A stretch of 64,000 nucleotides of DNA from the human T2T-CHM13v2.0 reference genome, Homo sapiens (GCF_009914755.1 NC_060934.1), one strand, 5' to 3'. Shown: positions 8,371 to 62,770, numbered from the stretch's first letter. Notes: a model not told the origin generated them from the sequence alone. Numbers and translations are program-made.

Positions 8371-9216
8371 CATGGGCGAATAAATATTTGCTAAGCCGTA
8401 CTTTGAAGGGGGTTATTTCCAGTTCCAGATGAGAGATACCCACAGGCAGCCCGGAGGGTGGGACCCCAGGGGGCAGGACCCCCAGGAGGTGACAGAGGCC
8501 CCGGCAGTGGGGGACCGGGGGCCCAAGGGGACCTCCATCCTTTTCCCGGGCTGCCGCCCAAGGCTACCGCCGCTCCTGGGTCCCAGTGCCCTCTCACTGG
8601 GTCCTGATAGGGGCTCCCTTTCTCACCCCGGGTCGGGCAGGAGGCCCCGGACTCCAGTCCCGGAGGAAACGGAGGCTCCAAGGCCTCCACGGAGGAGAGA
8701 AGGGGAGGGCTCCTCTCCGACCCGGGCTCCTCTCTGACCCGGGCTTCTCCAGCACCCACCCCAACGGGTTCTCAGAGGGTGAGGAGGAGGTCGGGGGCTG
8801 GGTTCAAGCCGCACTGGGCCCCGGATTCAACAACAGAAAGTGCTCCCGAGGGTCCTGTGCATCAGAGGGGTCCTGGCTCGGCCTGGAATGGGGCTCGGGG
8901 AGGGTCAGACGGTCTATTGGGCTCCCAGCCTGAGGCCTCCCTCCCCGGCCCGTAACCCCTCCTGCCGCTGGGGCCCTCCTGCCTTTCCCTGCACGCCACT
9001 CCCTGGGAGGCCGAGACTCCTGCCTGGCCTCCCTCTGCCGCTGGCACCCCAGACTCCCGGACTCACCCTTGGCTGGGTTGCCCTCTCCTCCTTTAAGCGC
9101 TGGATGCCACAAGTTCCAGGCTTCTTGGGCTCTGGGAGGAGGCACAGCGGAAGGCTAGGTAGCTATATTAGGCCGCTCCAAAGTCGCCTTGTGCTGTTGC
9201 TGCCTCACTGCCTCCA

Positions 9217-9364
9217 GCCTCCAGCATCCAGGGAGAGTGCAGGTGGGCAGCACCCAGTTCTCTTCCTTCTCCTCCTGCCTAGGGCGGACCGGCCTCCAGC
9301 ATCCAGGGAGAGTGCGGGCACATGGCGCCTGGCCCTCTTCTTTCTCCTCCTGACCAGGGCGGAG
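9217..9364 (+). repeat. Tandem duplication, 2 x 75 bp
   Basis: gcctccagcatccagggagagtgc...tctcctcctg..agggcgga starts at 9217 and 9292. Confidence 0.9.
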
Positions 9365-9394
9365 CAGTAGAGACCACGCGGCCTGGAGTGGGGT

Positions 9395-9530
9395 GAAATG
9401 ACGAAAGCCCAAGGGGGAACTATTTATAATGACTCTTATTTAACTGGCTCTCCTGGAAGGCATGTTCGGATTGGGTGAGAGCCACTGTGCAAAACAACTC
9501 TGATTGGATAATATGACCCAATCAGGGCTG
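9395..9530 (-). promoter_or_regulatory. Pol II core promoter (TATA + Inr + CCAAT boxes), predicted TSS about 9399
   Basis: On the - strand: TATAAATA (9421-9428), Inr-like TCATTTC (9395-9401, A at 9399, 29 nt from the first T of TATA), CCAAT at 9470-9474 and 9503-9507, plus an opposite-strand CCAAT at 9518-9522. Confidence 0.7.
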
Positions 9531-9566
9531 GCTGAAAGGTTCCTTCTTGTCTTATCAGAACCAGGG

Positions 9567-9646
9567 TACCAAAAGTTTATACTACTTTGACGTAAGTCTA
9601 CATTGGGAAAATACCTGAGTGACCCTAGAATGTTAACTTTTAAGAA
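9567..9646 (-). repeat. 80-bp inverted repeat arm A (pairs with 13400-13479)
   Basis: Reverse complement matches 13400-13479 at 74/80 positions. Confidence 0.95.
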
Positions 9647-9879
9647 TATATAGATGCTGGGGAGGGGCAGGAGCCAGCGCCCCCACCGGAATTGGAAGCT
9701 GGGGACGCACATGGGAGATGGCTTTGTAGCCACCTCGCCTTCGGCTTTGCCTCCTGCCACGCCCCACAGGCCTGGAGAATGTGGCCCTTGTTGTTTCCAG
9801 GAATACTTTACGCAATTAAAGTCATAATTAAAGTAACATATGCAAAAACCCTATCAGTACTCCTTTTATACTTAAAGTT

Positions 9880-10035
9880 TTGTTTAACTATAACCCTGTT
9901 TACTTGTTTATATGTTGTCTATGGCTGCTGTCATGCTGCAAAGGTCGAGTAGACTATGAAACAGATGATGTGGACCACAGCTCCAAATATGTTTACTATT
10001 TTGCCATTTTCAGGATGAGTTTGCTGGATGACTCC
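9880..10035 (+). mobile_element. MER58-like hAT-Charlie MITE
   Basis: gtctatggctgc...aaatatgtttactattttgccattttcagg...gtttgct. Confidence 0.6.
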
Positions 10036-10689
10036 TAAACTAGTGGAATGTCTGTGTTACTAGTACAGGGAGATCCTTGCCAGCCAATGTCAGAAAAACA
10101 AGTTGATTTTATGGACAATTTGTCATATACATACAAGCACCTTTCCAGTTTTTGTAACTATTAACGATTTATTTTCCTACTTAGTTTGCTCGCTATAACT
10201 TTGAGTGGCTCAACTATTCATCCTGTTTTGATTTCTTCATACCACTTATCCTCCTTCCAGATTATTTAATCAGGTGATTTTATGTTATACCTCAGTAGGG
10301 TCCTGAGCCTCTTGTTTGTTTACATGTCTCTATGACCCTCTTTGTTGTTTCATAAATGGATTGATGATATGTAAAATGTACATATTCATGGAAATAGCAT
10401 TTGTTCCAATTGACAAAACTATTTATAAAATGAGGATTGTAATTATGTGTGCTATTTGAATTGTGTACATGTATATTTCTGTCCTTGGATTGGAGGCAGA
10501 AAAGGGGTTGATTTTGGCTTCAGCCATGGTTGTTTCCTCGGAATCCTAAAGTTAGTTGTTCTAGGCATGGGTCTGTAGGATGAATATCCCAAGGTGACAG
10601 TCATGGTAGATCCTTAGACCTTATTCTCGTGGGATTTTTAATAAGTGTATTAGTATTTTAAGAGCTATATTAGCTATAAGAAGAAATAG

Positions 10690-12750
10690 AATCAATTTTT
10701 ATTTCAAAATGTTTCAATTTGAAATAATTGTATACTTCAGAAAAATTGAAATAATATTAACAGTATTTCTGCATACCCTTCATCTATCCTTACTGTTAAT
10801 GTTTAACATAATCATAGAACAATTATTAAAGGTAAGAAATTCATACTGATTCAGTACTGTTGACTAATCTTCAGAGGGCATCTGAATTCTCCCTCCAGTA
10901 CCCATTTTCTGTCCTCGTTGCATGTAGTTCTCATTTTTCCTCAGGCTCCTCCAGTTTGCATAATTTCCTCATTATTTCTTTTACATTCATGACCTTGACA
11001 CTTTTTAAGAATCATATTTATTTTGTAAATATTTTGTAGACTGCACCTCCATTTGGGTGTGTCTGATGTTTTGTCATGAAGTAACCTTCCATTTAATCAT
11101 GAGGAAACATCAGATAAACTCAAACGGAGGTACAGTCTATGAAATAAATATGATTCATGTGGCAGGAATGCCACAGAAGTAATGTTACATACTTCTCAGT
11201 GCATTTTATCAGATGGTGTGTGATGTTGCCATTACTGGTGATGTTAATCTTGGTAGAATGGTGGCTGCCAAGTATTTTTCCCTTTTTAGCTGAAATGTAT
11301 TTTGTGGGGAGACATTTGTAGATATACAAATATCCTGTTTGTTATCGTAATCTCCACCATTAATCCTAGCACCCATGAGTAGAATTTTACCTACAGCAGT
11401 TATTACGGTGGAGATTGCCTAATGATTTCTTTCCATCATTCCTTCTGTATTTGTTTGGAATGCTCCAGTAGGAAACAGCTGTTCCTTCTACACCACTTAT
11501 TTATTCAATTATTTATATTATTATGGATTCATGGCTGTTTAGTGTATTCTTTGGATTATGATCCAATGCTAATATTATTTATTTTGTTTTCAGGTTGTAT
11601 CAACTGTTGGGGTGATCAGACCCAACACCAGGCCATGGGGTCTATGAAGTCTGGCGGCATCAAAGGAATGAGGAAAGACAAGTTAAGAGAGAAAGTGGGA
11701 CCAGGGGGCCAATGCTAGTATGGAGGCTGCGAAGGCCCCAAGCTCTGGGAGCCCACACTGTTTATTGGTGATCAAAGAAACAGTTGGTGAGGATGTGGGG
11801 GTTGAAAGGAAGTGGTGTATCAAGTGAATGAGCTACAGCTGTGACGGTTCAGCATTTTCTTTGAAACATATGGCTACTTGAGATAAAGGGAGTGCTAGAA
11901 GCAAGGAGCCAGCAAGTCCAGACACATTCCAAAGGCCATGAGAGGTTTTAGACCTTGGACCCCGGACATGTTCCAAGCACTGCCTCAGCTTCTCTCCCAA
12001 CACTCAGCTTTTCTCCCAACACTCAACATTGTCCATTGAGAGCCCCTTCAGGTTGGCACCTGTTTCCTTTTGATGTGCCTTCATCATTTTTCAGTTCTTC
12101 CTTATTTTTGGCATCACAAAGCATTCCAGGCTTATCACGCGTCTTCCCTGATCTCAGCCCTGAAATTAACCCTATTTCTAGGGAGCCCTGGTTCATTAAC
12201 TGGAGAATGGTACTAGAAACCATGATCTGAGCACTAGGTGTGCTCATTGGCATGGGAATGCCATTTACTCTAGGATCTCTTCATGGACAGAGTTAGGAAC
12301 TCTATATTGGTGTACTCACACATGCGTTAACATTTGTCTATACCTATCTGACTGTGTACCTACCTACCTACTCATAAAAACTGTGAGTTCATACTGTTGC
12401 CTTTGATTCCACTCTAACACCACTGAGTTTATTCTAGCTTTTCCTTCTTTGTAACTTCTAACAGTGAGAACATTGGCTTTTATTTTCCAAGATATGTTCA
12501 CTTGTTTGTTTGTTCCTGGTGTGTGTGTGTGTGTGTGTGTGTATAGTAGATTGAGAAATGTGAAACCATATGCTTGTTAAGAAACAAATTTACTAATTAG
12601 AAGATAGTATTTGTGTGACATATTTTTTGTCTTTAGCTTTCAACAATGAAAATAGAGTTTTCCAAAGTTACTTAGGCTTCTTATGTTCTTCCCCACCTCT
12701 TTCTGCATGCTCATATTATTAGATTTCCTTTTATTAGATTCTCATTTCAT
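10690..12750 (-). mobile_element. Old L1MC/MD 3' region, interrupted by an ERVK LTR
   Basis: Degenerate antisense L1M 3'UTR motifs. Confidence 0.55.
11605..12021 (-). mobile_element. Solo ERVK LTR (LTR14B-like, HML-1)
   Basis: TG...CA termini; - strand start TGTTGGGAGAAAAGCTGAG; AATAAA on - strand; 6-bp TSD atcaac/ctcaac. Confidence 0.8.
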
Positions 12751-13008
12751 TAGATTCCCTTTTATCCTTTTTAGATATCTTATGCACAAATAAGCAGATA
12801 ACGTATATAATTTCTAATATCCCCTTCTCATTATATGAAGTGTAGCTCATACCACATGTATATATATGCATTCTTGCTCTGTGTTTTGCATTTTTTCTTT
12901 CCACTTAACAATATAGCCTATATTTTAGAACATATTTAAATTTACTTCCGTCTTAGCATGCTGTGATAGCAGTTTCATTATTTTTCAGCTGTAGAATTTT
13001 GTCTATAA

Positions 13009-13479
<471 letters not shown>

Positions 13480-13529
13480 GTAATTTAAATGTCTTTATTT
13501 ATAAATGCATATTTATGTTTCATTTCCAG

Positions 13530-13716
13530 CTGGTTGGAGTGTTTGATGAGCAAGATCTACATCATGGAGGTGATGACACCAATGCCAGCTCCATGCATAC
13601 CTAGAGCCCAGAGAGATTTGCTAGTGCTAGTGAGCTTGGCACAAACAATGTCTCAGCCTTTCAGTCTGATCAAGCAGCAAGTGAAATTGAGGTCACATCT
13701 TCAGTACTTCATGTAA
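13530..13716 (+). pseudogene. Isolated duplicated PARD3 exon 3 (gene fragment) with nonsense codon
   Basis: tttatgtttcatttccag|CTG GTT GGA... translates [61 protein letters not shown]. Recalled PARD3: [60 protein letters not shown]. TAG at 13602-13604; donor gtaagt at 13717. Confidence 0.9.
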
Positions 13717-13752
13717 GTAAGTGAAAGCTCTTTCTTCTCTGCATACTTCATC

Positions 13753-14018
13753 TTTTTTTTTTTTTTTTTTTGAGATGGAGTCTTGCTCTGTTGCCCAGAC
13801 TGGAGTATAGTTGTGCGTTCTCGGCTCACTGACACCTCTGCCTCCTGGGTTCAAGCAATTCTCCCTCTCATGACCTCCTGAGTTCCTGGGATTACAGGCA
13901 GCCACTGCCACGCCCAGCTATTTTTTGGGTATTTTTAGTAGAGACAGAGTTTTGCCATGTTGGGCAGGCTGGTCTCGAACTTCTGACCTCAGATGATCTG
14001 CCCGCCACGGCACCTGGC
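13753..14018 (-). mobile_element. Alu (AluS) with small deletion
   Basis: Antisense Alu just downstream of the PARD3-derived exon. Confidence 0.92.
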
Positions 14019-14312
14019 CACATCATCTTCATTTGAAGGATACAAAGTTTTGTCATCCAGTCTTGCTTCTGTAAATGCAAGGAATTCATTTCTTGAACAG
14101 ATAATAAAATTCATTACCTGTTTTTATCCAGAATTCAGTTTAGAACTTTGGCAAATGTCTTGCAAAGAAGTAGGCACATTAAAATCACATTTTAATGAAT
14201 TAAGCTTACTTTAGTCAACTTTTCATGGCAGGGCAGGGTCCATCAAGGCAGGGGAATAGAGAAATATTTAGACACTGGTGTAGCCCAAGTCCCAACCAGT
14301 TTTAGTATATGT

Positions 14313-14484
14313 TGAAGCGAGCACCCAAGTCCCAACCAATCTGAATGAACCATTCTACCATACCAAGCCAATATTAATATTATTCATAATAAAATCTGCT
14401 GAAGTGAGCACCCAAGTCCCAAACAATCTGAATGAACCATTCTACCATACCCAGCCAATATTAATATTATTCATAATAAAATCT
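14313..14484 (+). repeat. Tandem duplication, 2 x 87 bp
   Basis: tgaag(c/t)gagcacccaagtcccaa...attcataataaaatct at 14313 and 14400; partial third copy at 14284-14298. Confidence 0.92.
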
Positions 14485-15509
14485 TAATAAATGAAAAATC
14501 AGTAAATAAAAAATGAATATAAAATACCTAAACATAAATTTGTCCTAAAACTCTAGTTGAGGGTTTTAAACATATCAAGAGTAACTGTTTTGAGTCACCT
14601 TAAAGCATTGCAATTTGTACAACCAAAAGGAAATATATCCTAAGGAAAAAATGAATTGCCAAACGAGGACCCTAAAACTGTTTGTTGTTGGCATTGTTCA
14701 TTTTCAATTCATAGATGGGTATTATAGGATGAAGGAGATGAGGAGCAATAATACTTTAATTCTGTCATTCCTGGTGTCATTGAGGACCTAGGATTCTTAG
14801 TATAGAAGAAAGGGGATACAGATAGAAGTTACAAAGTAACAAACACTTTATAGTCCTCAATTTGGATAGGACAAGTCATCATGGATTCATGATATGCTTT
14901 AACTCTCAAAAAAAAAGAGAACCTAGAAGGAAGGAGAACTCCTGTGTGTATTCACAGAAAAAGCCATGAATCAAGGACCACCTTAGTAAGGCAGCATTTC
15001 TCATATCCAGGCTATATTCTGGAAATAACAATTTTTTATAAAAAGAGATCAGAGTTCCTTGGAGAAATGCCTGAATTTAGGTCTGGACAGAAAATGTATG
15101 AGATGATTCTGGATCATCCTGACATATCATAAAATAAGGATGCTATGAAACATTACTAGGGTATATCACAGGGCCTAGGAGAAGACATGATGCTCCTACT
15201 GTCATTGGAACATCAATTAGTATAGTAACAGCAATAAGTGCATGGATTTGTAACTATAATAAATAAGCTTACAAGCAAGAAAAAGGCTTCCAGTGATCCA
15301 ATTTATTATTTGGAAAGCTGATAAAGGAATAATTCATCTATTCTGCATTTCCTGTGTGGGTGGTGTGACTGGATAACTAAGTAACAGATCAAGGGGAAGT
15401 TACTTTTTATGTAAGTATTTCAGCTAATAAATGAAGGTGTAATGGTAGCATTAGAATATTACTATTTTGCAACTCCTGGTGAAATAATAGATCTAGGGAT
15501 TGATCATTG

Positions 15510-15959
15510 TATGAAAGGACAATAAAAATTGGGGACCCCAATTTCCTATGCCAAAAGAAAAAAATTAAGCTGAAAGCTGAGTCATGAAAGAAGCTGCCTT
15601 TCCTTGGCTTTGTAAGCAGTTACAGATAAAAGTTTAAACATTTCCACAGGTAGCTACCCTGTTCATCTTATCTAATCAAGTGCTGATTTATTGAGCATAA
15701 GATCAGTACATAATTGACTATTTCCCTACGTGCTCCTTTTCTCTTGCAACATGAGGATCACCACACACTTCCTGTTTCCTCTCTAGGTCACTTTTCCTTT
15801 TTAAATATTGAAGCCCTCAAAATCATCTTTAGAGAAAAATCACAGACCACAGACTGTGTCTGTGATTCTGTGTTTATTTCTCCTGGGCATGTTCTTAACC
15901 TTGGCAAAATAAACTTCTACACTGATTGAGACCTGGCTCAGATACTCTTTGGTTTTACA
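15510..15959 (+). mobile_element. Solo ERV1 LTR (MER4 group)
   Basis: tatgaaaggacaataaaaattggggacccc...aataaac...ttttaca; 4-bp TSD attg. Confidence 0.75.
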
Positions 15960-15961
15960 AT

Positions 15962-16445
15962 TGCTATGGTCTTAATGTATCCCTCAAAATGTATCTGTTA
16001 GAACTCTAATCCCTAAGACAGCAGTGTTGGGAGCTGCAGCCTAATGGAGGTGTTTAGGTCAAAAAGGCACTTTTTATTTGGAAAACTGATAAAAGAAAGA
16101 ATAAATTATTTATCTATTCTGCATTTCCCATATGTGGGTGTTATCTACTACCCTGCAGTAGATGAGGGGGATGTTACTTTTTATATACATATAAAATAGT
16201 TATGTCTTATATAAGTATAAAAAAGGCTTGATGGATTGGGTTTACTTTTTGTCACTCTTCTGTCATGTGAGCACATCACATCCATCCTCTCTCCCTTTCA
16301 CCTACCTCCATGTGAGAATGTAGTAGGAATACCCTCTCCAGAGGCCTCTTGATTTTGGACTTCCCAGCCTGCGGAACTGTGAGAGAATAAATTTCTGTTC
16401 TTTATGAGTTACCTAGGTTCAGGAACTCTGTTATAGCAACAGAAC
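15962..16445 (+). mobile_element. MaLR LTR (MST/MLT1A-like)
   Basis: tgctatggtc...ggacttcccagcc...aataaatttctgttc...tgttatagcaacagaa. Confidence 0.8.
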
Positions 16446-16866
16446 CCTCCCAACTGGAGTTCTTCAGCACACCCCAGTCCATCCCCTCGCTAACTCCCCC
16501 ACCTGTCCAGTCTTATCTGCCTTTATATCAAAAGCCCACAGCTAACCCAGAGGGCTTCAGCCCTGCCCTGCCTTTCTAGGAAACCCCCCTCTCCACCCAC
16601 CCTGATCAAGACACTGTCTGAAGTTTCCCCCTCATGATTTAAAAAAAAGAAATTTATCTGACAGAGGTTCTGCTGAGGAGGCCAGCTCTCACATCAGAGG
16701 GTGATGGCAGTTTGTGCTGGATGAGGATAAGACAATGCTGTCCTAGGGCTGGCCATCTGATAAAGCTTCCCAGAAAGTGCAGTAATGGACCCCTGGGAGG
16801 CTTTCTGCTCTCCTGTCTGCGGGTTCCTGGTGAGAGGACCTATTGGCCACTAAGGTGTCTGAATAT

Positions 16867-16871
<5 letters not shown>

Positions 16872-16905
<34 letters not shown>
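16872..16905. repeat. (TG)n microsatellite
   Basis: Direct; other (TG)n tracts at about 12519-12542 and 17863-17899, and a TG-rich tract at 6377-6478. Confidence 0.95.
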
Positions 16906-16907
<2 letters not shown>

Positions 16908-17338
16908 AGAGTGATGTGTGTGTTCTTGGCTTGATTTCTTTCAGCATGAAGCCCACTGTTTTGCTGAATGTATCTGTTTCCTGAAACTCAGTGCATTCAG
17001 CTGGCTCAAGGGTCCTGGGGCCTTACTGTGTCATATTTGCACAAGCCTTGTGTCTGTGCAGACTGTACACTGGAGTTCAGTTGTAAAACCCTTTTTCTCC
17101 CTTATCCTGACACAGTAATAGAAAAGCCATTTCATTCAATGGAATAGAAACCCAGATCTAATGGAGAGATGGTCTAATCTGCCATACATTGGAGCAGTAT
17201 CCAGTGATTTGGACTTTGTGGCATTGATGGAAATTTCCAGGTTCTCTAGGTGGTGGGCAGAGACCTCACTTTTTAAGAAACTCTCCACCCCTGCCAATGA
17301 GGACACTGCTTGAGGACATTCCTGTCAATGTTAAGTAG

Positions 17339-17695
<357 letters not shown>

Positions 17696-17860
17696 TAAGG
17701 GAGCCAGCTCCTGAATACTGCCAGGTGCTTGGGCTGAGACAGGTCTAGACAGCACTGTCTGAAAATGGGCTCAAGGAAGTAGCTGTGAAAGGGCCCTGGG
17801 ATGTTTTCTGCTCCCCTCTCTGCAAATGTCCTGGAGGGACATCCTGTTAGTCACTTTGCG

Positions 17861-17901
<41 letters not shown>

Positions 17902-18889
17902 CATCAGTTGGTTTTATGTTTTTGCTTTTCTTCATGAAATCTGCAGAGCTGCCAAAAGTACCTTGATGTTTTCTGAAAGCAGAGCCAATGACCACACTCC
18001 AGGGACTGAGTTCTCAAATGTATGGTATTTGCTAAGGACGGGTGTTTACCTGCAGATAGTGTGATGGGGTTCAGAGCCAAGGAACACTAGTTTCTGTGCC
18101 CTGTTTCTATGTTAAAAAGACATTTCGTTCAACTGGATAACAGGGCAATTCTGGTGGAGAAAAGGTCTATTCTGCCATAGGATGGGGCAGCAGCCTGCAG
18201 TTCAGAACACTGGTGTGTGTCTGGAGATTTCCAGGAACTCCAGCTGCTGGTAGAGGCCCAGAAGGTAGGGGGCATTTGTCTTCAGATCAAAGGTGAGGGT
18301 TCTGCTCACCCCATTATCTTGGCCATGTGTGGACCCTTAAGTTTGCAGGATTGGATGTCCTGACTGACTGTGCCATAGGAGGGTATAAGAGACTGAGGGC
18401 AACACAACTATAGACTGTGGGGATGATGTTCATAGGGAGCGTCCCTGCTGCCTGTGGCAAGAGTAAAGAGTGAAATGCTTGGGGCTGGGAAGAGGCAACA
18501 AAAGTCTACATAATCTATTGTCCTCAGCTCATCTCCCATCCTAGTCCAGTCATGGCCTAACATCTTTAGCTACTGATCGCAGAGGAGACTGTGCATTTGT
18601 GTTCATGTGGCCTTGGATGTTGGCAAATTCAGATTGGTGCCCCAGGCATCTGTGCCTGTAACTGCAGTTTCAATGGGCTCAGAACCAGCCTAAAGGGCCT
18701 CCAAGCTTCCTCCAGTTTCCTGGTGCATGCATGTGCAATATACTCCCGTCGCCTGGGTCTCTTCTGCCTCTTCTTGCCAGTTGGGTCAGAGCTAGCTTAT
18801 TAACCAGTGTTTTCTGAGATTTAATAGAACTGGCTCAGACCAGTTGGAGACTTGAAAAGGGCTACGTGATAGTAATAGATTTTTAAAGA

Positions 18890-19620
18890 TACATTATTAT
18901 TTTAGAGTAGATTTGAGTGTACAGCAAAATGGAGTGCAGAGTCCAGAGTTCCCATATGCCCTCGATTCCTGTACACTCTTGGGTCACTCAACCAACAACC
19001 TCCTACACCAGAGTAGAATATTTATTATAGTCAGTGATCTTACACTGACACATCATTATCACCCAGAGTGATACTGTTGATGGCACACATTCTAAGGGTT
19101 TGGAGAAATGTATAACGAGAATGAAATGTATAATGAATGTATCATTATAGCTGTTATGATATCCTGCAGTATATTTTCATTACTGTAATAATCTTGTGCT
19201 CTATTTATTTATCCTTTCTTTTCCTAACCACTGGAAACCACCAATCTTTTCACTCTCCAAAGTTTTGCATTTTTCTGAATGTTATATACTTGGAATCATA
19301 GATAACTTTCCAGATTGGCTTCTTTCAGTTACTAATATGCATTTAGTATGTAATATGCAGTTAGTAATAGCTCATTTCTTTTCAGATGTGATTAACATTT
19401 CATTTTCTAAATATACCACATTTGTATTTATCATTAAGCTACTTAAGGAAATCTTGGTTCCTCCTGACTTTTGGCAGCTATTTTAAAAGCTGTTATAAAC
19501 ATCTGTGTGCAGATTTTTGTGTGGACATAAGCTTTCTGGTCATTTGGATAAAGACCTAGGGAATGCAACTACTGGATCACATAGTAAGATTATGTGTAGT
19601 TTTGTAAGAAACTGCCCATA
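18890..19620 (-). mobile_element. L1MB/MC 3' fragment
   Basis: Antisense L1 3' sequence (aaacatctgtgtgcagatttttgtgtggacataag...tttgtaagaaactgcc). Confidence 0.7.
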
Positions 19621-19669
19621 TTAGGAGAGTCTTTACATTGGTAGAGGAGACTGTGCTAACATACTGCAG

Positions 19670-19805
19670 AACCATGCTCAGCTAATTATTTGTTTGTATT
19701 TGTTTTAGAGATGGGGTTTCCCTAAGTTGCTTAGGCTTGTTTCAAAATCCTGGGCTGAAGTAGTCTGCCTGCATTGGTCTCCCCAAGTGCTGGAATTACA
19801 GGCCA
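19670..19805 (-). mobile_element. Alu monomer (FLAM-like)
   Basis: Diverged left-arm sequence. Confidence 0.75.
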
Positions 19806-21699
19806 TCTAAACCTTTTATCTTAGATTTGCCTTGTGACAAAAGGAGGGGTACTTTTTCTGATATGATGAGGCAGAGAAAGATGAGGTGGGTGCATCCTGT
19901 GCATATTATTTTCTTAGGCTTTTGCCTGATGGGATATATTTTCTCCTTCAATGATATGGCAAGATATTCAGGTGAAAGAAGTTGAATAAAAGTTAGAAGA
20001 ACAGAGAAAAGATTGGTTCTACATGTTGGGTTTTTGAATAAATGATGTCATTGGAGAAACAAAACTTTTATTGATTTTTGGAAATATTCAGGGCCAATTT
20101 GTTGTGTAAGTAATTTGAACTTATGATGATACCTCTGACCACTTTTTGATATTTTTGGGGTTCAGCTGAGTGGTGTCAATGAGCCAACACAAAGTGGGGC
20201 TCATCCAGGGATGAGATTTTGCCAGAGAAAGGATGAGCATCAAGTCAGGGAGCTTAAGATAATTATGAGAAAGTGACTATCTAAAATTGCTTAGGTAAGA
20301 GAGAGATTGGATTTTTGTGTATTTGGTATTTGGGAGAAGAGGGGTGTGGGTATGTATATGAGATGTGTTGTTTATTCTCTTAAGAGAGAAAATGAGAGGA
20401 TTAATGGACTGTAGTTCTGGACAAGGTGAAAAACTCTTAAAGTGGAAGTATTGGTGCAAGTGCTGTGACAGGCTGGAATGGTGCAGTCAGTCCCTTCATC
20501 CATAAATCAGTAGAATGTTAGCAGTTCATACTCAAACCTTGTAAAAAATAGGTGGAGAAAAGGAAGTCCCTCACAGTAACTGGCACCATAATCAAGACAG
20601 AATGTTTCCAGAATAAATGGAGTTATCTGCTTTCAGCTTCAGGTGGTAGCTATTGTCTGCCCTGATGATATGTGATAATAATTTGTGATCCCGATGTCTT
20701 AAAATGGGATCACTCATCTCCAGTAGAATTAAGTCCACAGTGAAGTTGTCCCCTCATCCCCAAAGAGATAAACATATATGAATGGACTGAGATGATAATA
20801 ACTACTGCTGCCTGGGATCATGAGAGACCTGAAATGAACTGATAGGATGTGAAAGGTGGCTGAGAAAATGAGAATGGACCCATCTGCGGAGGATCATAAA
20901 ACCAGCAAAGCTTCAGAAGCTTTGTCCATGAAAACTCTAAGGACTTCTCCATACCTGGTGGCTGCTGCTGTGATCTCTGCCCAAAAGGAGCCTCTGATCA
21001 GTATCCAAAGGGCTTCTGGACCCACTGGAGTCTTCTGGAGGTACATTGGTATCCTGAGACATCACTGTGGTTTTTTACTCTCTTTATTACTGCCTGTGTG
21101 TAGAATGATAATTGCCTAATTGATAGTGTGAATACCTCTTGATACATGGTAAATCTGAGCATATGTAATTGGGTGTCATGTCATTCTGAAACCTCACAGC
21201 TTCAGTCAGTGTCAGCACAGCTAGGCAGCTTGCACCTAATGCAAATATCAGTGGACATAGTCTATAGGTACCTAATGACTCAGGTACTTTAACAGTCACT
21301 AATGAGTGTATCTCCAAGAAATAGTCCAACAACACATGGCTGGCCTGACTCAAGGTAACTATATGTCCAATCCAGGGTCATACTGAGTGGACATCTGGCA
21401 ACCACAGGTCATTCCCCCTGCCTGCCATTGAACTGCTAGTTCAAAAGTGACTGGTGTAAGCAGACAGGAGTGGGCTTGTTCAACTCACTATTTGCTTCTT
21501 CTGAAGGGATCATACTCAGGATCTAGGTCATCGTGCCTTATTGGAGTCCTACACATTTCACTTGCAAATTATATTTGAAAATGAAATTACCATGTTGCTA
21601 GTCATTCACAAAACATTTTTTAAAATTACATTCTAGAACCAATATTAACATCCTGTGACCCATAGAAAACAATAGAGAAATGTATTAGGCAAAAAGTTC

Positions 21700-23383: not shown

Positions 23384-23680
<297 letters not shown>

Positions 23681-46818: not shown

Positions 46819-47319
<501 letters not shown>

Positions 47320-49512: not shown

Positions 49513-49525
49513 GTAAGTGTCACTT

Positions 49526-49809
<284 letters not shown>

Positions 49810-49831
49810 CAGTAAGTGTCACTTTTATTGA

Positions 49832-50150
<319 letters not shown>

Positions 50151-50472: not shown

Positions 50473-50788
<316 letters not shown>

Positions 50789-51252
50789 TCAACTTACATG
50801 GTGTAAAAACTTAAAAATGTATTTTCTCAGGTGCATAATAGCCACATGTGACTAGTGACTGTTGTATTTATCAGCACAGGCTTAGAGCCTCATGGTTACA
50901 GGAAACTATATTTTTTCAAAGTTTATTGCAGAGAAGAATGACATACGGTCAGTAAGACATTAAAGCCTAGTAATAGCTTACATTTGGATGGAATTATGTG
51001 GGGGAAAGGGTAAAAAAGAACACAAACATTTTCTGAGCTTAAGCTCAATTATTTTTAAGTGAATGTTGATGAGTATGAAATCATTATGGTATTTCAGGAT
51101 TCTACTGTTCATATTGTAAAAACTAAAAGACATCTCACCAATCAAAATTATCGTTAAGTGACACATGGGCACAAATGTGAACACTTCTGTCTTAAGAACA
51201 CCTCAGGTTTTTTCTTCAATGGATACTTACATTACATCCTTTCTTCTTTCAG

Positions 51253-51372
51253 TGAGAAGACGTTTTGGAGGAATATTTTAAATATGATCCTTAACACAAA
51301 TTGGTTTTCAGTTTTGTTTGTATTCTGTTTAAAGCCATAAGGCTAACAGCTGAATTTGCAATTGTAAGTTTG
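51253..51372 (+). pseudogene. CCNYL exon 7 (120 nt) with stops at 51253-51255 (TGA) and 51292-51294 (TAA)
   Basis: ttttcttctttcag|TGA GAA GAC GTT...GCA ATT GTA AGT TTG|gtaaga; LTAEFAIVSL is the start of the cyclin box. Confidence 0.92.
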
Positions 51373-52463
51373 GTAAGATATTTTCTATTTCTAAAGCAGC
51401 TTTAGAAATTCTTCTTGTAAACAGGGTGGTGTGGTCCTGTTTTTAAATAACAGTAGGTTTCTGAAATTATCTCAGAATTTCGAGAGGAACTTATGAAAGC
51501 AAATACACACATTTTAGTTGAATCATCATTATGGCTTAAAATCTCACAATTGCTTTTCTCATCACAGAGCAATTGCTATTAAAGGCAGCAGGAGGGATTT
51601 CTGATTTCTCCCCCAACACTTCAATAAACACATGCACACACAGTGCACACACATCCAGGGCTTGTGGAGGGTTTGGAATGGGGAGCAGTAACAAAACCAT
51701 CTGGCCGACGGGCAGGAAGGGATGCTGGTGTAGGTCTAAGCTGAGTCCCAGGCTGTATCCCCAGGCAATTCTGATGCATGTTGTCATTGACAGCTGCTGC
51801 CCTCAAGTCTTTGTTCCTTGGATGATGTGGGTTAATATATCCCTGCTGATCACCTGTGCCTTCTCATGAAGTTGCCCAGGAATGTGGTTCCAGTTGGTCT
51901 ACCAAACCATAGCTGTGTCATTACATTTACATTATCCCTACAGAATTCCTTTTGTAAAACTATAATTTTAAATAATAGATTCTGTTCAAATTATTAAAAA
52001 TAGTCTTACTCCTCCCCACAACAGACCTATGGAGGAAAGTCAACTTCATGGCCAGGAATGAAAAAATACTTATGTGAATACTTCTTTAGCAACCAGCTAG
52101 AGTCTAGAGGAGAAGGCTCCTGCTGTGCACTTGGAATGAAAGCCCTGAAAGGGCGCTGGACCAGATACAGGCCTTCTCGAGGAGCTGCAAGTCATTTGGA
52201 ACTCTTAGCACGTGCTAGAGGGAAGCAGGAGTGGTGCTTCCAGATGTAGAGAGATAGGTGATGCAGGAGGGAAAGCTGGATTGGAAAAGGGAGAGTTTTG
52301 TACATGGGCTAAGCTTGATGTGCCTTTGAGAGAGCAGAGTAGCAGAGTGTAGTCATCATTTGGATATACAGGACTAGAGCATGAATCTGACATAGAGCTA
52401 CAGAATGAAGAGCAACAGAAGCTGTTTAAATACCAAGAAAGTGTGTAGAATGAAATTGGACAA

Positions 52464-53200
<737 letters not shown>

Positions 53201-54898
53201 ATAAAATGGACAGAAAATAGTTTGGTAAGGACTATTATCATTTGAGGGACAAGCCCCCAGTGGAGTAGCCACTAGAGTGGGAAGAGGAAAAGCAGAAAAG
53301 GATAATAAAAGGAGAAAGAGTTCAAGATAGGAGAAGCTGTGGTCACAGTGCTGAATGCTGCCAAGCAGTGACTTGATTCATGAACACTCACTGGATGCTG
53401 ACCCTGTGCCGCTCTTCTAAGTGCTGGGGTAGAGGAGAGGACAGGTGGATCACAGTTCTTGCTTTTATGAGCTTATGTTCTAGGAAGATGGAACTTAAGT
53501 ATTTTCTCAGGTAGTATGAAACAGCAGGAAGAGGAAGCAGGATAAAGGGATACAGAGTGATTGGGGGCTATTTTAGGTAAAATGATAAGGAAGAGCCTCT
53601 CTAGAGAGCTGACATTTGAACAGTGACCTGACTGAAGGAACAACGGACAAGAGTGCTGACATTACAGGCAGCAGGATGACTGTAAAGACAGACAGAAATG
53701 CATTTCTTATGTGTTTGAGGAACAAACAGCAAGGTGACCAGCATGGTCAGAGTGAAGAATGAGGGAAACAGTGGAGATGAGGCCCCTCAGGCAGTACCAT
53801 AGCTCACAGGGCCTTTTGGCTTGTAGGCCATAGGAAGAAGTTAAGGTTTTACTCCAGTTTGATGGGAAGCTCATGGTAGATCTTGAGCAGGGCAGTGCCA
53901 TGCTCTAAATGAAGAGGTTATGCTGGCTGCTTTGGGGACACTAAGCCATAATTGGGAGGCAGAGTGAAGGCAGTGAAGAGGGTTAAGAAGCACCTAGGGT
54001 AATACAGGTGAGCAGTGACAGACTGTGGGTCATCATCAAACCATGCAGACCACCAGTGAAGGTAGACGTAAGAGGCATTGCACACAGATTGGAGCAGGGG
54101 AACTGAAATGCAGGTATTTGCCCCAGCACCTAGGCAAATGGCACATGTGTGGCCTTTGAAATAATTATTTGGCCAGTGACAGGTCTAGGGCCTCTGGACT
54201 GTGAAAAATGTGTAGTTTCACCCTGAGTTACACATTGTGAATTTGCCTTTGCTGGTGTTCCCCCTGCTTTTATCTGAAGTTCTGTTTTATAGAAACCTTG
54301 AGATACAGAATAGCCACAGATCCCTGTGCCCCATCCCATCCCCAATAGGAGTGTTGCATGTGTTTAGAAATTGGGCTGATGAGTTAGAAGTTCCAGTGTT
54401 CCCCTCAGGCAGTCTGAGAAACATTGCTGGAGCATCACCCAGTGCTCACCACACTCAAGAGGTTCCCGGGGCACTCATACAACCACAGCAGCACTTTGGG
54501 GGCCCCGAGTTACCTGTGAGAGTGTAAGAAATCTTGCTGAGTCATGGGGTTGCTCACAGATGGCACCAACATGATGCTGAAACAGAAGCTTCATGGGGTC
54601 TTTCTTCCAGTCTAGCCTCATGACTGCTTTAAAGGGAAGGGCCTTGGAGCTGGTAGGTAGAGAGAGCCAGGGAGGCATTTTGAGCAGAGGCTCTCACAGT
54701 GTCCACTAGAGATTGAGAATGGCTTTGTGGGTGACACTTAGGGAAACCTGAAGGAACACCTCTTGATGACATTGAGCACCGTATGAAGATCAAGATCATG
54801 ACAGGCAGTGGCAAGAGGTTTCGGGTTTTTGTTTTTCTTTTTTTTTTTTTTTTTTTTTACATTTGCCTGTTTCTCCAGTTAAGACTGTCTTTCAGAAT

Positions 54899-59028
<4,130 letters not shown>

Positions 59029-59727
59029 AAGACTTTCATTCAGAATTACTACATTGTATATTTACAAGTGAATTGAGGATTCTTGTGACTAAGAAGAGAC
59101 TCACTAGTGATGGTCAGTTGGTTTTGAAATGGCTGCTAAATTACTGCTTTGCTAATAGTAGAAACTGAGTTGTCACGGTGATATTGCTAGTAGCCATTTT
59201 AGCAAAGGATGTAACAGAAAACGAATTTGAAAAAAATAGAAGTACTTTGAAAGTTGCAGAAGCTAAAGTGCTCTTAATCACTACTGTAATCAGTCTGTAC
59301 ACTGGTTTCTTGAAGGGAGCAAAATTTGTAATTATGAACACTTAGCTCTGCTATAAGGCAGCTAAATTGTTTTCAAAACCTTCAGCTAATCCAGTGGGGC
59401 TCTAGTTCTAGTTACAAGGTCAGAGAATATCCAGAGAAATGTGCAGGTTTCCACAGATGTGAGCTCCAGAAGCAGTGGTGGCAGAAGCCAGCTCCAGTTC
59501 TACACAATGCTGTTTGTGAATGCAGAAGCACCCAGATCTATGCTCTGAGCAGAAACTGTAAAACGTTGCAACAAAGTGTGTAATGTACATTTATCTTGTC
59601 CCTCTGCTGTTGATTGTAATGATCTCTTTTGGACTGTGAATTGAACCATTTAAAAATTAGTGTTTATCAGATTTTTCTTAAAACTTTTCAACATCTGTTT
59701 GTCTTGTTAGAATACATTTTCCTTCAG

Positions 59728-60225
59728 AAACGTCACTAATTTTCAGGGAAATGAAAATAAAAACCACAGTGTGATACCACCTTACTCCTGCAAGAATGGC
59801 CATAATTTAAAAATTGAAAAAATCATACATGTTGGTATGGACTTGGTGAAAAGGGAACACTGACACTGCTGATAGGAATGTAAACTAGTACAACCACTAT
59901 GGAAAACAGTACTGCCATTCAATCCAGCAATCTCACACTGGGTATCTACCCAAAGCAAAAGTCATATGAAAAAGACACATGCACATGCGTGTTGGTAGCA
60001 GCACAATTTGCAATTGCAAAAATGTGGAATGTCCATCAATGAATGGGTAAATAAAGTGTGGAATATATACACCATGGAATACTGCTGAGCCATAAAACAG
60101 AATAAAATGATGGCCTTTGCAGCAACTTGAATGGAGCTGGATGCCATTATTCTAAGTGAAGTAACTCAGGAATGGAAAACCAAATATCACGTGTTCTCAC
60201 TTACGGGTGGGAGCTAAGCTAGGAG
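59728..60225 (+). mobile_element. L1PB-like 3' fragment
   Basis: Typical late-ORF2/3'UTR sequence (gataccaccttactcctgcaagaatggcc...ctaagtgaagtaactcaggaatgg). Confidence 0.85.
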
Positions 60226-60856
60226 GATTTTATATGTATTTATACACATACACACACACATACACACACATACATATAAGTTAAACTGAGCAGCTCCTAT
60301 TCAGAAAATGTGCTGTGCCTATAAAGGGTATGCTATTCAGCCATTTAAAAAACAACAAAAAACTAAGAAGATACATATCCTGTAAGGCATAATGGCTTTC
60401 TTCAATAACTAAGCCTCTATTAATAAACATGTTAATTATATAAAATACTGTATTTTACACATTTAAAATATGTTTACGGAAAAACATGAGATTATGAGGT
60501 ACATATATTTCTATAGTAAATTAAGTCCTGATTAGCTGATTATTAAAGCATTATATGATTTACATTCCTATAGTCTTATGGTTATATGAATAGGAAAGTA
60601 ATATTAGAAGTAGTTTCAGTGGGGTTTTCAGTTAAACAAATGAGAAAACCACATATCTGCTTATATCCTAACTGCTTTCCATACCAGAGAATATCAAGCA
60701 TTTGTTGACTTAGCTAATGGATAAAACTTTAAAACCAAGAAACCAAATATGTTGTTGAGGTATTAATTGTTTTTATAAAGTTAAGTCTTTACAGGGATTA
60801 CTATGAAAGTGGTAAGATTACTCTAGTTCTATATTTATTTAAACATTTGACAAAGT

Positions 60857-61110
60857 GCTGGACACAGTGGCTCATGTCTGTAATACCAGCAATTTGGGAG
60901 GCCAAGGTGGGAGTATCACTTGATCACAGGAGTTTAACACCAGCCTGGGCAACAGGTGAGACCCTGTCTCTACAAAAAGAATTTTAAAAAAATAGCCCAG
61001 CATGAACCTGTAGTCCCAGTTACTTGAAAGGCTAGGATCATGCCACTGCACTTCAGTCTGAGTGACAGAGAAAGACCCTATCTCAAAACAAACAAACAAA
61101 CAAACAAAAA
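60857..61110 (+). mobile_element. AluJ-like with deletion
   Basis: Diverged sense Alu with (AAAC)n tail. Confidence 0.85.
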
Positions 61111-61924
61111 TCTTTGGCCAGGACAGCTGGATAATCACGTGGCAGAGGGCTGCTCCCAGCTTGTTCCCCTCTCAGTACATTCAACTCATCCCCACATTCT
61201 GTTCTGGCCAGGGGTGACAGATGCTGAGCACCTTGGGGTTTCATTTCCAACTCAGGAGAAACACTGTGTAAGGCCAGCATCCTAGCAAAAGGCATGTCAT
61301 AAAAGGGGTTTAATCTAGCCAAGGTGTTTCTCTTTGATCTTTCTACCATCTGAAGTGTAAAGAGTATTCCTGCACCGTAATAGTGACAGATAATAAATGG
61401 CATCCATCATTTCTGTCATCTGATCACTATTGTGATGCCTTGGGAGTGAGCATGGAGTCTGAGTTGTGCAATAGAACCCTCAAGAATGAGCCCTGAGTCA
61501 GCTGCACGAGGGCAGAGAAGGGTGTCGCCTTTCTCCTCAACCCAAACTTGGGGTGCTAGATGCAGAATGGACTGCAAGCAGCTGTGCCCTCTTTGGACAT
61601 TAGTGTAGGAATCCACCCGCATAGCCTGTATTTGTTTCAAAAAAGAATTTGGAGCTATCCTAATAGCTCAGTGTGATATTTTTAAATAAACAGAAAAAAA
61701 TTTTATTAACTGACTTAACAAAAAACACTGCCTATTAAATTCATTTAATATTGTTTAAGGAGTATCTACAAAATTCTGACTTCAATGTTTTCTTACAAAA
61801 GAAGTGGAAGTAAGGACAGAGACCCTTTCAAATGAAGAATCACTGAGAAACAAAATATTTATAAGTAGTATAACATTTACTTATGCACATTTTTAAAGAT
61901 TATGCCATAATCAGTTTGCATCAG

Positions 61925-62548
61925 GCTCTCCAGTTTCACAACACTGAGAGGGTTTCCCTGTAGGAGAAATTTTCATATAAATGTTGAAGAAATTGTTAAA
62001 ACTGAAAACTTTTCTGTATTTGGTAATCTACTGGGGTTCCAATCCAGTATGCTTTCTTATATTTAGAAGGTCTTTCTACAGTGTGTTATCATGGATCTTG
62101 GAGCAAATATCATGTAAATGAAGGCATTTCCACATTCTATACATTCATAGGTTTTATTTCAGAAATGAGTTCTTATCTTCATGTGGAACTGGAACAACTG
62201 AAGACCTTACCACGGATGTTTGTATTTATAAGGGTTTTCTCCATTGAATCCTTTCATATTTTCAAAGAAATGAAAAAGCTGAAGGCTTTACTGTGTTTCT
62301 TAAGATTATGTCAATTTTCTCCATATTAAATTCGAATATGTCTTTGAAAGCACGTGGGAAAATCAAGTTTATTAACACAGTTTTTACATTCATGTTGTTT
62401 TTGTTTTTCTAAGTTTTCAAAGAGAACTGGGAAAGTTGCATGCTTTCTTGTATTTCTTAGATCGATAGGGTTCTGTACAGTGTGAGTTCTTTCATGTGTT
62501 CTAATAAAGTAGAGCACATGATGCCTTTGCCACATTTTTTACATGAGA
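61925..62548 (-). pseudogene. Degenerate C2H2 (Kruppel-type) zinc-finger array relic
   Basis: - strand fragments CKKCGKG, THERTHTVQNP, HECKNCVNKLDFPTCFQRHIRI, GENPYKYK..GKVFS, KTYECIECGNAFI, TGKPSQC; many stops and frameshifts. Confidence 0.82.
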
Positions 62549-62607
62549 ATAATGTTTTTGAACTAACATTGTCCTGTGTTGGTTTTGTTGTGTTTCTCCT
62601 TCCCCAG

Positions 62608-62770
62608 GAATGAGTTGGAAAGGGAATTCTTGAAGCTAATTAATTACAATATCAGCGTTACTGGCAGTGTTTATAGCAGATTCTACTTCAATCTTCGAAC
62701 CATGGCACATGACAACAGCCTGTATTCGCTAGTTTATCTTCTTGACAGAGAAAGAGCATGGAAGCTGGAG
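62608..62770 (+). pseudogene. CCNYL exon 9 (163 nt), open frame
   Basis: Branch-like ctaac at about 62563; tttctccttccccag|G AAT GAG TTG GAA AGG...AAG CTG GAG|gtaagg. Confidence 0.93.

What the first reader, a model, noticed from the sequence alone, without database searches (positions are those of the whole stretch)
8390..62770. Composite duplicon: divergent lncRNA promoter + PARD3 exon + cyclin Y-like body
Seen: in order, a - strand CpG promoter, an inverted repeat, the PARD3 exon, an ERV-L gag relic and the CCNYL exons. Known: the N-terminus of the primate AGAP4-family (CTGLF) proteins, MGNILTC...STIFLDDST...DADRSL..DEQLH, derives from CCNYL2-type exons 1-6 fused to an AGAP retrocopy. Intron 6 here (49513-51252) holds only Alus and has no AGAP retrocopy. 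Inference: this copy keeps the pre-fusion structure of an exon-shuffling cassette that has seeded new primate genes.
Basis: partly seen in the sequence, partly recalled or inferred. Interest (0 to 1): 0.7.

Follow-up and report, generated by a model that had tools for sequence, protein, structure and literature searches.

The report
Unfused cyclin-Y-like pseudogene in duplication mosaic
This stretch of human chromosome 10 is one arm of a known duplication flanking the centromere; it carries a decayed cyclin-Y-like pseudogene that never received the AGAP1 gene copy that created the AGAP4-type genes, which makes it an ordinary though tidy relic.

Summary
The window contains a GC-rich block, an 80-nt inverted repeat, a PARD3-like exon and CCNY-family exons 1-6 in the stated order. 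It holds no AGAP retrocopy.

Two items fail:
- The "CpG promoter" misses the CpG-island criteria (GC 66%, CpG obs/exp 0.39). It lies inside the last exon of the predicted lncRNA, whose annotated start is at 21027.
- No "ERV-L gag relic" could be confirmed.

The whole 64 kb is collinear and inverted with chr10:43.29-43.36 Mb (6.3% mismatches). That makes it one arm of the ZNF37A/ZNF37B pericentromeric duplication.

It is a mosaic of four parts:
- A, 1-9566: shared only with the 10q11 twin.
- B, 9567-16438: a PARD3 genomic fragment.
- C, 16449-~21250: shared with AGAP copies, with a distant match on chrY.
- D, 21553 to the window end: a CCNYL gene related to a chr19 pseudogene.

AGAP copies share only C and D, up to 50387. 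There a 5'-truncated AGAP1 retrocopy replaces window 50388-52234, which includes exon 7. The site is therefore genuinely empty and ancestral.

The PARD3 exon, inverted repeat and GC block never travelled with AGAP genes. CCNYL4 itself is broken. The cyclin-plus-retrocopy origin is already published (Baertsch 2008). Low novelty.

The parts
1..9566 (.). Module A: ZNF37A 3' flank and intergenic DNA. Low-copy homology only to the 10q11 twin (C10:43.353-43.363 Mb, inverted).
   Evidence: JC distance to the twin 0.081 over 9441 aligned bases.
8400..9400 (-). It looks like a decayed former CpG island and is not a CpG island by standard criteria.
   Evidence: GC 66%, CpG o/e 0.39, 43 CpG. The 10q11 homologue has o/e 0.54 and the chr19 counterpart 0.57. 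Lies inside lncRNA exon 3651-9382 (hub table).
9449..9561 (.). 113-bp element with conserved CCAAT/ATTGG boxes, bordering the GC block.
   Evidence: 73% identical to C19:30439980-30440091, about 26 kb upstream of the chr19 CCNYL exon 1 and next to a GC-rich block there.
9567..9646 (.). Left arm of the inverted repeat: an inverted copy of PARD3 intron sequence.
   Evidence: pair I5, 80 nt, 93%. Matches C10:34545655-34545738.
9567..16438 (+). Module B: genomic fragment of PARD3 (intron, one exon, intron), in sense orientation on the + strand.
   Evidence: Ten collinear HSPs to C10:34549190-34539818 on the minus strand. 4240 aligned bases, 18.6% mismatches, JC 0.213. Shared with the 10q11 twin only.
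13400..13479 (.). Right arm of the inverted repeat, in its native position just upstream of the PARD3-like exon.
13530..13712 (+). PARD3-like pseudo-exon, 183 bp. AG and GT splice sites kept; in-frame TAG at codon 25.
   Evidence: The parent exon at L026:5419-5604(-) is open. Par3 N-terminal Pfam exons lie upstream on the same strand.
15510..15959 (.). Interspersed repeat of about 450 bp inserted into the PARD3 fragment after it was copied. Family not determined.
   Evidence: Absent from the PARD3 parent: HSPs abut at 15509 and 15960. Many copies at 78-82% genome-wide.
16449..21250 (.). Module C: low-copy segment shared with AGAP copies, with a distant match on chrY. Contains the annotated lncRNA start.
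   Evidence: Query 16449-17340 gave 9 candidates, all scored: self, the twin, six AGAP-side copies at 86-87%, and chrY at 67%. chrY:21743679-21748880 is collinear at 67-70%. In the 50.83 Mb AGAP copy homology starts exactly at 16449.
20955..21027 (-). Annotated first exon (start site) of lncRNA LOC105376500.
   Evidence: Hub table. The region 20369-21318 is 88-90% identical to six AGAP-side copies.
21553..64000 (+). Module D: the CCNYL gene unit, related to a chr19 pseudogene locus (C19:30.460-30.513 Mb).
   Evidence: chr19 matches at 79-83% over 21553-26133 and 76% at exon 1. The late exon is 63% identical in protein. JC 0.214 over 1918 bases.
21980..22530 (+). Two open frames (86 and 85 aa).
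   Evidence: No Pfam hit. Only 3 genomic matches for the first frame.
27632..27921 (+). RefSeq CCNYL4 exon 1 (non-coding), which ends upstream of the family's ATG.
   Evidence: Hub table.
27951..28149 (+). Coding exon 1 (begins MGNILTCC), cut short at 28149/28150 by a window-specific 753-bp deletion that removed its last codons and the splice donor.
   Evidence: The same gap appears against all chr10 paralogues and against chr19.
29862..29936 (+). Exon 2.
   Evidence: hub table.
31853..31887 (+). Exon 3, not annotated.
38631..38729 (+). Exon 4 (contains STIFLDDST), not annotated. No GT directly after it.
47569..47604 (+). Exon 5.
   Evidence: hub table.
49461..49512 (+). Exon 6 (DADRSLGIFDERLHPFT). 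In AGAP genes this is the last host exon before the retrocopy.
49517..50149 (.). Two Alus absent from the AGAP copy but present in the 10q11 twin.
   Evidence: Hub masked list. The AGAP copy joins 49532 to 50151. The twin aligns without a break over 44031-54151.
50385..50390 (+). Empty integration site of the AGAP1 retrocopy.
   Evidence: AGAP copy 39647-39680 aligns to window 50354-50387. AGAP1 exon homology starts at AGAP-copy position 39679. Sequences read.
50388..52234 (+). 1.85 kb present here and in the twin but replaced by the retrocopy block in the AGAP copy.
51253..51372 (+). Exon 7, with two in-frame stops.
52235..53769 (+). Last stretch shared with the AGAP copy (86-91%), minus an Alu at 52579-52897.
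62608..62770 (+). Late cyclin-fold exon with an open frame.
   Evidence: 83% to the twin, 63% to chr19, 54% at C10:35.59 Mb, 52% at C2:208.23 Mb.

Best explanation
The window is the 10p11 arm of an old inverted duplication that flanks the chromosome 10 centromere; its twin is at chr10:43.29-43.36 Mb. The duplicated block is a patchwork of four pieces.
- A: ZNF37A-side DNA with a decayed GC-rich block.
- B: a 6.9-kb genomic piece of PARD3 with one now-broken exon.
- C: a low-copy segment.
- D: a cyclin-Y-like gene unit whose nearest outside relative is a pseudogene locus on chr19.

CCNYL4 is a dead, transcribed copy of that cyclin-like gene. Before the 10p/10q duplication, a sister copy carrying only C and D received a 5'-truncated AGAP1 processed copy about 875 bp downstream of exon 6. 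That copy lost the next 1.85 kb, including exon 7, and began splicing exon 6 to an acceptor that lies inside an AGAP1 exon. It then multiplied into the AGAP4-type genes.

The window therefore shows the unfused, ancestral state of the site. The PARD3 exon, inverted repeat and GC block are passengers of the 10p/10q block, not parts of the cassette that made AGAP genes.

Shown: the homology map, the empty site, the tree and the lesions. Inferred: the order and timing of events, and that nothing here encodes a protein.
For: - Whole-window collinear inverted match to C10:43288059-43363215. 58,448 aligned bases, 6.3% mismatches.
- PARD3 fragment and exon.
- Of 12 chr10 places matching the exon-1 region, 9 have an intronless PH-ArfGap-Ank frame 20-22 kb downstream. 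Three do not: the window, 43.33 Mb and 39.05 Mb.
- The same frame is split into at least 8 pieces over chr2:236.37-236.61 Mb, so the chr10 form is a processed copy.
- 5' junction: AGAP1 exon homology begins at AGAP-copy 39679, where window homology ends at 50387. One 85-bp AGAP1 exon spans the splice acceptor in use.
- AGAP copies share the upstream region only from 16449.
- Tree of 10 rows rooted on chr19: AGAP clade 100/100, with the window, its twin and the 39.05 Mb copy outside it.
- JC distances: window-twin 0.066, window-AGAP 0.121, window-chr19 0.214, window-PARD3 0.213.
- Lesions: 753-bp deletion of the exon 1 end and donor; two stops in exon 7.
- Print: CTGLF1 began as a cyclin gene and gained PH, ArfGap and ankyrin domains from a CENTG2 retrocopy (PMC2584115, passages). 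ZNF33A/37A/33B/37B are listed as genes in duplicons (PMC3048570, table rows).
Against: - The grouping of the three unfused copies is weak (78/76, and 76/68 for window + twin). They could be a grade rather than a clade, although either shape fits a single insertion.
- The 3' end of the retrocopy block was not resolved. There is no clear poly(A) at the junction with window 52235, and the search meant to place that flank was swamped by Alus. 'Insertion plus co-deletion' could therefore be two separate events.
- Only one AGAP copy was aligned in full, and it lacks module C. The 16449 boundary was checked at base level in only one other copy.
- The 113-bp chr19 match in module A suggests that A's end and D were once linked. 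That sits awkwardly with AGAP copies starting exactly at the B|C joint, and it remains unexplained.
- PARD3 and AGAP1 are named from position and from Pfam domains, plus my recall of gene locations. The tools gave no gene names for those loci.
- No expression, methylation or other-primate data were available.
Confidence: 0.85

Rival explanations
1. Secondary loss: the ancestor of CCNYL4 and CCNYL2 once carried the AGAP1 retrocopy and later deleted it.
For: Pericentromeric duplications undergo deletions and gene conversion (general knowledge; PMC11534156, passages). The window itself has a private 753-bp deletion.
Against: The window keeps 1.85 kb with a family exon 7 that the AGAP copy lacks. 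A loss would therefore have needed an insertion without that deletion, followed by a clean excision. The AGAP copies form one clade, 100/100. No AGAP-like coding remnant is present anywhere in the window or the twin.
Confidence: 0.03
2. One reading: GC promoter + PARD3 exon + CCNYL body is one mobile exon-shuffling unit that seeded the AGAP genes.
For: All parts are adjacent here and in the 10q11 twin. Module C, which holds the annotated lncRNA start, does travel with 6 AGAP copies.
Against: The PARD3 piece has 4 genomic matches only: self, the twin, the parent and the inverted-repeat arm. The GC block matches at full length only in the twin. In the 50.83 Mb AGAP copy homology stops at 16449. 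The PARD3 exon has a stop.
Confidence: 0.04
3. The locus works as RNA: CCNYL4 and the antisense lncRNA are regulatory transcripts. The conserved CCAAT element beside the GC block would be a live promoter.
For: RefSeq calls CCNYL4 a transcribed pseudogene and predicts a three-exon lncRNA (hub table). The 113-bp CCAAT element is still 73% identical to chr19 while its flanks no longer align.
Against: CpG o/e is 0.39 here against 0.54 in the twin, which points to CpG decay. The lncRNA is a predicted model only. There were no Rfam matches in the window. No expression data were available.
Confidence: 0.1

Closest known systems
AGAP4-AGAP14 (formerly CTGLF) chimeric genes on chromosome 10
   Same: Exons 1-6 and introns are homologous (about 89% substitution identity over 18.7 kb). 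The upstream region is the same from 16449 in 6 copies.
   Different: No AGAP1-derived PH-ArfGap-Ank exon. The window keeps exon 7 and later cyclin exons that AGAP copies lack. It lacks the AGAP-side duplicated exon 2. It carries extra upstream modules A and B.
CCNYL2 locus at 10q11.21 (chr10:43.29-43.36 Mb in this assembly; gene name recalled, position from calls)
   Same: Collinear over all 64 kb, including the ZNF37-type flank, GC block, inverted repeat, PARD3 exon, empty site and the two Alus after exon 6.
   Different: Inverted, on the other side of the centromere. It still has the end of exon 1 with its GT donor, which the window has lost. Its GC block keeps more CpG (o/e 0.54 against 0.39).
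chr19:30.44-30.51 Mb cyclin-Y-like pseudogene locus
   Same: Same gene layout, with exon 1 and a late exon 47 kb apart. Shared 5 kb upstream of exon 1. A GC-rich block with the CCAAT element lies 26 kb upstream.
   Different: JC distance 0.214. No PARD3 fragment and no module C detected. It has its own in-frame stop in exon 1.
Mosaic pericentromeric segmental duplications (the ZNF33A/37A - ZNF33B/37B duplication of chromosome 10)
   Same: Long, inverted, high-identity blocks on both sides of the centromere, built from pieces of different origin. The duplicated KOX zinc-finger clusters flanking the chromosome 10 centromere are an old finding (Tunnacliffe 1993: title seen only in the reference list of PMC8889308; paper not held).
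   Different: Nothing essential. This is one more stretch of that block.

Membership tests
AGAP4-type chimeric gene (CCNYL host + AGAP1 retrocopy) | N-terminal exons 1-6 of the cyclin-Y-like host | tested here: met
   Exons located and translated. Collinear with an AGAP copy from 26397 to 50387.
AGAP4-type chimeric gene (CCNYL host + AGAP1 retrocopy) | Intronless AGAP1-derived exon (PH, ArfGap, ankyrin) in the intron after exon 6 | tested here: not met
   tblastn of the 500-aa frame against the window gave noise only. None of the 10 contiguous chr10 matches lies in the window.
Cyclin-Y-like unprocessed pseudogene (CCNYL2/CCNYL4 type) | Family exons separated by introns, i.e. a duplicated gene rather than a processed copy | tested here: met
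   Eight exons spread over 35 kb. The late exon matches C10:35.59 Mb at 54% and C2:208.23 Mb at 52%.
Cyclin-Y-like unprocessed pseudogene (CCNYL2/CCNYL4 type) | Disabling lesions | tested here: met
   Exon 1 end and donor deleted. Two stops in exon 7. No GT after exon 4. A motif scan between 51373 and 62607 found no cyclin-box exon, but that scan is weak.
Segmental duplication (>=1 kb, >=90% identity) | Long high-identity paralogous block elsewhere in the genome | tested here: met
   58,448 aligned bases with 93.7% identity, counting substitutions only, to C10:43.29-43.36 Mb, inverted.
CpG-island promoter | GC >=50-55% together with CpG obs/exp >=0.6 over >=200-500 bp (criteria recalled) | tested here: not met
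   GC 66% but o/e 0.39. No 500-bp window qualifies.
CpG-island promoter | Transcription start at the element | not testable with these tools
   The hub table puts the lncRNA start at 21027, and 9382 is a splice acceptor. No CAGE or RNA data were available.
ERV-L gag relic | Similarity to a retroviral gag, and many genomic copies | tested here: inconclusive
   None of 68 frames reached a Pfam cut-off. The frame at 21980-22240 has 3 genomic matches. 24600-26150 is low copy, with 19 candidates. Pfam may lack an ERV-L gag model, and no repeat library was available.
PARD3-derived duplicon | Collinear homology to the PARD3 gene including a coding exon | tested here: met
   Ten collinear HSPs, with the exon region at 83%. 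The parent exon is open. It lies downstream of the Par3 N-terminal exons on the same strand. The gene name rests on that evidence plus recalled coordinates.

The most novel reading that the evidence does not exclude
With its 10q11 twin and the chr19 relative, this window lets the birth of a core-duplicon gene family be read base by base.
- A cyclin-Y-like unit and a PARD3 piece were copied at about the same time (both JC about 0.21 from their relatives).
- A sub-copy starting exactly at the PARD3 joint (16449) then took in a 5'-truncated AGAP1 processed copy at 50387.
- That copy lost exon 7 and adopted an acceptor hidden inside an AGAP1 exon.

I found these details in no paper. In searches, CCNYL4 and LOC105376500 each had 0 occurrences. 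The one review read that mentions CCNYL2 (PMC6971155, passages read) says there was nothing on CCNYL2 in PubMed.
Probability: 0.55. Interest if true: 0.35.

Novelty: already known. Interest (0 to 1): 0.2.

Why it matters
The AGAP duplicons are linked to structural instability at 10q11.22 (PMC11534156, abstract and passages). An unfused sister copy gives the empty-site reference needed to date and describe how their founding gene fusion happened. Beyond that, the window is an annotated pseudogene inside a known duplication. It raises no new mechanism or open question.

Tried and rejected
- Retrocopy in the GC-rich stretch 52-57 kb: its 41 open frames of >=60 aa show nothing AGAP-like, and tblastn was negative.
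- Naming short exons by Pfam or PDB: 6 of 7 frames gave nothing, and the PARD3 parent exon had no PDB match.
- ERV-L relic. Not found, but not excluded.
- Placing the retrocopy's 3' flank on AGAP1: the search was swamped by Alus, with 40 of 13,183 candidates scored.
- Rfam over the whole window: 0 matches.
- Guy 2003 and Tunnacliffe 1993 are not held. What they say about this exact stretch was therefore not seen, and it may already cover the mosaic.
As a result only one AGAP copy was aligned end to end.

Full report
**What is in the window.**
The hub table places the window at T2T chr10:38192001-38256000, between ZNF37A and the centromere. It lists a predicted antisense lncRNA and the transcribed pseudogene CCNYL4.

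- *GC-rich block.* A block at about 8400-9400 is real: GC 66%, 43 CpG. Its CpG observed/expected ratio is 0.39, and no 500-bp window anywhere in the 64 kb reaches GC>=0.5 with o/e>=0.6. By the usual criteria (recalled) it is not a CpG island. It lies inside the last exon of the predicted lncRNA. Position 9383-9384 reads as a splice acceptor on the minus strand, and the annotated start is at 21027.
- *Inverted repeat.* Among 9 inverted pairs of >=40 nt between 8 and 28 kb, 8 are Alu against Alu. The one non-Alu pair is 9567-9646 / 13400-13479, 80 nt and 93% complementary.
- *PARD3-like exon.* It is at 13530-13712 with AG and GT retained and one in-frame TAG.
- *ERV-L gag relic.* I could not find one. 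None of 68 open frames of >=50 aa between 17.8 and 27.7 kb reached a Pfam cut-off. The two protein-like frames at 21980-22530 gave no hit. The first of them has only three genomic matches. The stretch 24600-26150 is low copy, with 19 candidates. Without a repeat library this stays open.
- *CCNY-family exons.* They are all present. Three of them (the coding part of exon 1, exon 3 and exon 4) are not in the RefSeq transcript.

**The window is one arm of a large inverted duplication.**
- BLAST of the window against 90 kb fetched from chr10:43.28-43.37 Mb gives one collinear, inverted chain from base 1 to base 64000.
- The chain has 58,448 aligned bases and 6.3% mismatches, JC 0.066.
- It includes the ZNF37A 3' flank, so this is the zinc-finger duplication flanking the chromosome 10 centromere. 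A table in PMC3048570 lists ZNF33A, ZNF37A, ZNF33B and ZNF37B as genes in duplicons.
- For the founding papers (Tunnacliffe 1993, Guy 2003) I saw only titles in a reference list, because they are not held.
- The GC block, both inverted-repeat arms and the PARD3-like exon are all present in that twin.

**The block is a mosaic.**
- *Module B (9567-16438)* is a genomic piece of PARD3.
  - Ten collinear HSPs match C10:34549190-34539818 on the minus strand, with 4240 aligned bases and JC 0.213.
  - The parent exon is open.
  - It lies downstream, on the same strand, of the two Par3_HAL_N_term exon matches at C10:34.84 and 34.72 Mb.
  - The left inverted-repeat arm is an inverted copy of the 80 bp just upstream of that exon.
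- *Module C (16449-~21250)* is low copy.
  - A query of 16449-17340 found 9 candidates, all scored: self, the twin, six AGAP-side copies at 86-87%, and chrY at 67%.
  - The chrY match runs collinear at 67-70% to 21246.
- *Module D (21553 onward)* is the cyclin-like gene unit. chr19:30.460-30.4647 Mb matches 21553-26133 at 79-83%. Exon 1 matches at 76%. The late exon is 63% identical in protein, 47 kb further on. JC is 0.214 over 1918 bases.
- The chr19 copy has its own stop in exon 1.
- At the end of module A, a 113-bp element with CCAAT boxes (9449-9561) matches chr19 at 73%. The match is 26 kb upstream of the chr19 exon 1 and sits beside a GC-rich block with o/e 0.57.

**What AGAP copies share.**
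- *Copy count.* The exon-1 region has 12 matches on chr10. Nine of them have an open 500-aa intronless frame 20-22 kb downstream. That frame carries PH, ArfGap and ankyrin domains. The same frame is split into at least 8 pieces over chr2:236.37-236.61 Mb, so the chr10 form is a processed copy. The window, the twin and a partial copy at 39.05 Mb have none.
- *Extent of homology in the fetched copy.* In the AGAP copy fetched whole (46.54-46.59 Mb), homology to the window runs from 26187/26397 to 50387. It resumes at 52235-53769.
- *5' junction.* AGAP1 exon homology starts at position 39679 of that copy, exactly where window homology ends. One 85-bp AGAP1 exon spans the splice acceptor in use.
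- *What the window keeps.* Window 50388-52234, including exon 7, has no counterpart in the AGAP copy.
- *Upstream reach.* Other AGAP copies reach further upstream, to window 16449. In the 50.83 Mb copy the homology stops at that very base and different sequence follows.
- *PARD3 piece.* It has four genomic matches only, none near an AGAP copy.

**Order of events (inferred).**
A tree of the 1.75-kb exon-1 region used 10 rows and was rooted on chr19. The six AGAP copies form one clade (100/100). The three unfused copies lie outside it, and their own grouping is weak at 78/76.

Distances (window-chr19 0.214, window-PARD3 0.213, window-AGAP 0.121, window-twin 0.066) suggest this order:
1. The chr19-type unit and the PARD3 piece were copied at about the same time.
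2. The AGAP-host lineage then split off.
3. Within that lineage came the retrocopy, the loss of exon 7, an Alu and an extra exon 2.
4. In the other lineage two Alus landed after exon 6; they are shared with the twin.
5. The 10p/10q duplication followed.
6. Last came a private 753-bp deletion in the window that removed the end of exon 1 and its donor. The same gap is seen against all chr10 paralogues and chr19.

Absolute dates would need an assumed rate, so I give none.

**Comparison with print.**
- Baertsch et al. [quoted passage not shown] They name a mouse cDNA as the ancestral form and report the fusion as absent from marmoset (PMC2584115, passages and a table row).
- The 2024 AGAP duplicon paper describes AGAP4-14 as catarrhine-specific. 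In the passages found it does not mention CCNY or PARD3: 0 occurrences each.
- A review says PubMed held nothing on CCNYL2 (PMC6971155).
- A whole-word search for CCNYL2, CCNYL3, CCNYL4 and LOC105376500 found 24 papers, of which 20 were listed. By title and abstract start none of the listed papers was evolutionary, and the last two names had 0 occurrences.
- The fusion story and the duplication are therefore known. The base-level details here may not be, but two key older papers could not be read.

**Verdict.**
The copy is truly unfused. It is also a broken pseudogene inside a known duplication, and the PARD3 exon, inverted repeat and GC block were never part of the unit that produced the AGAP genes. 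Interest is low.

Noticed in passing
window 16877-21246: Collinear match at 67-70% to chrY:21743679-21748880. For the first 900 bp it is the only match outside chr10. The origin of this module is unknown.
   Followed up: partly
window 24600-26150: Low-copy matches at 71-77% to four places on chr22 (24.08, 25.78, 29.86, 32.62 Mb). An 87-bp match at 80% lies at C2:208177962, 7.7 kb upstream of the chr2 exon-1 match. This may be a shared upstream element of the cyclin-Y-like family.
   Followed up: no
window 9449-9561 and L036 (C19:30439980-30440091): A CCAAT-box element is conserved at 73% between chr10 and chr19 while the flanking GC-rich blocks no longer align. This implies module A's end and module D were once linked. 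That is hard to square with AGAP copies beginning exactly at 16449.
   Followed up: partly
AGAP copy C10:46560327-46560487 (L031): An extra copy of exon 2 (89% to window 29791-29951) sits between exon 1 and the regular exon 2. It is absent from the window.
   Followed up: no
C10:39048211-39068401 (L020-L022): A third unfused but truncated cyclin-Y-like copy next to the centromere. It matches window 27686-46911 only, partly rearranged by L1-like sequence.
   Followed up: partly
C9:85800283, C1:178942323, C4:68653968: Further AGAP1-like intronless matches outside chr10, at 74-85%. These are presumably independent processed copies.
   Followed up: no
window 8400-9400 versus C10:43352915-43354100: The GC block has lost more CpG on the 10p side (o/e 0.39) than on the 10q side (0.54). 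This suggests different methylation histories for the two arms.
   Followed up: no
window 52000-57000: A 5-kb stretch with raised GC (47.5%), strong positive GC skew and almost no CpG (o/e 0.11). It is not coding and not AGAP-derived; its nature was not determined.
   Followed up: partly
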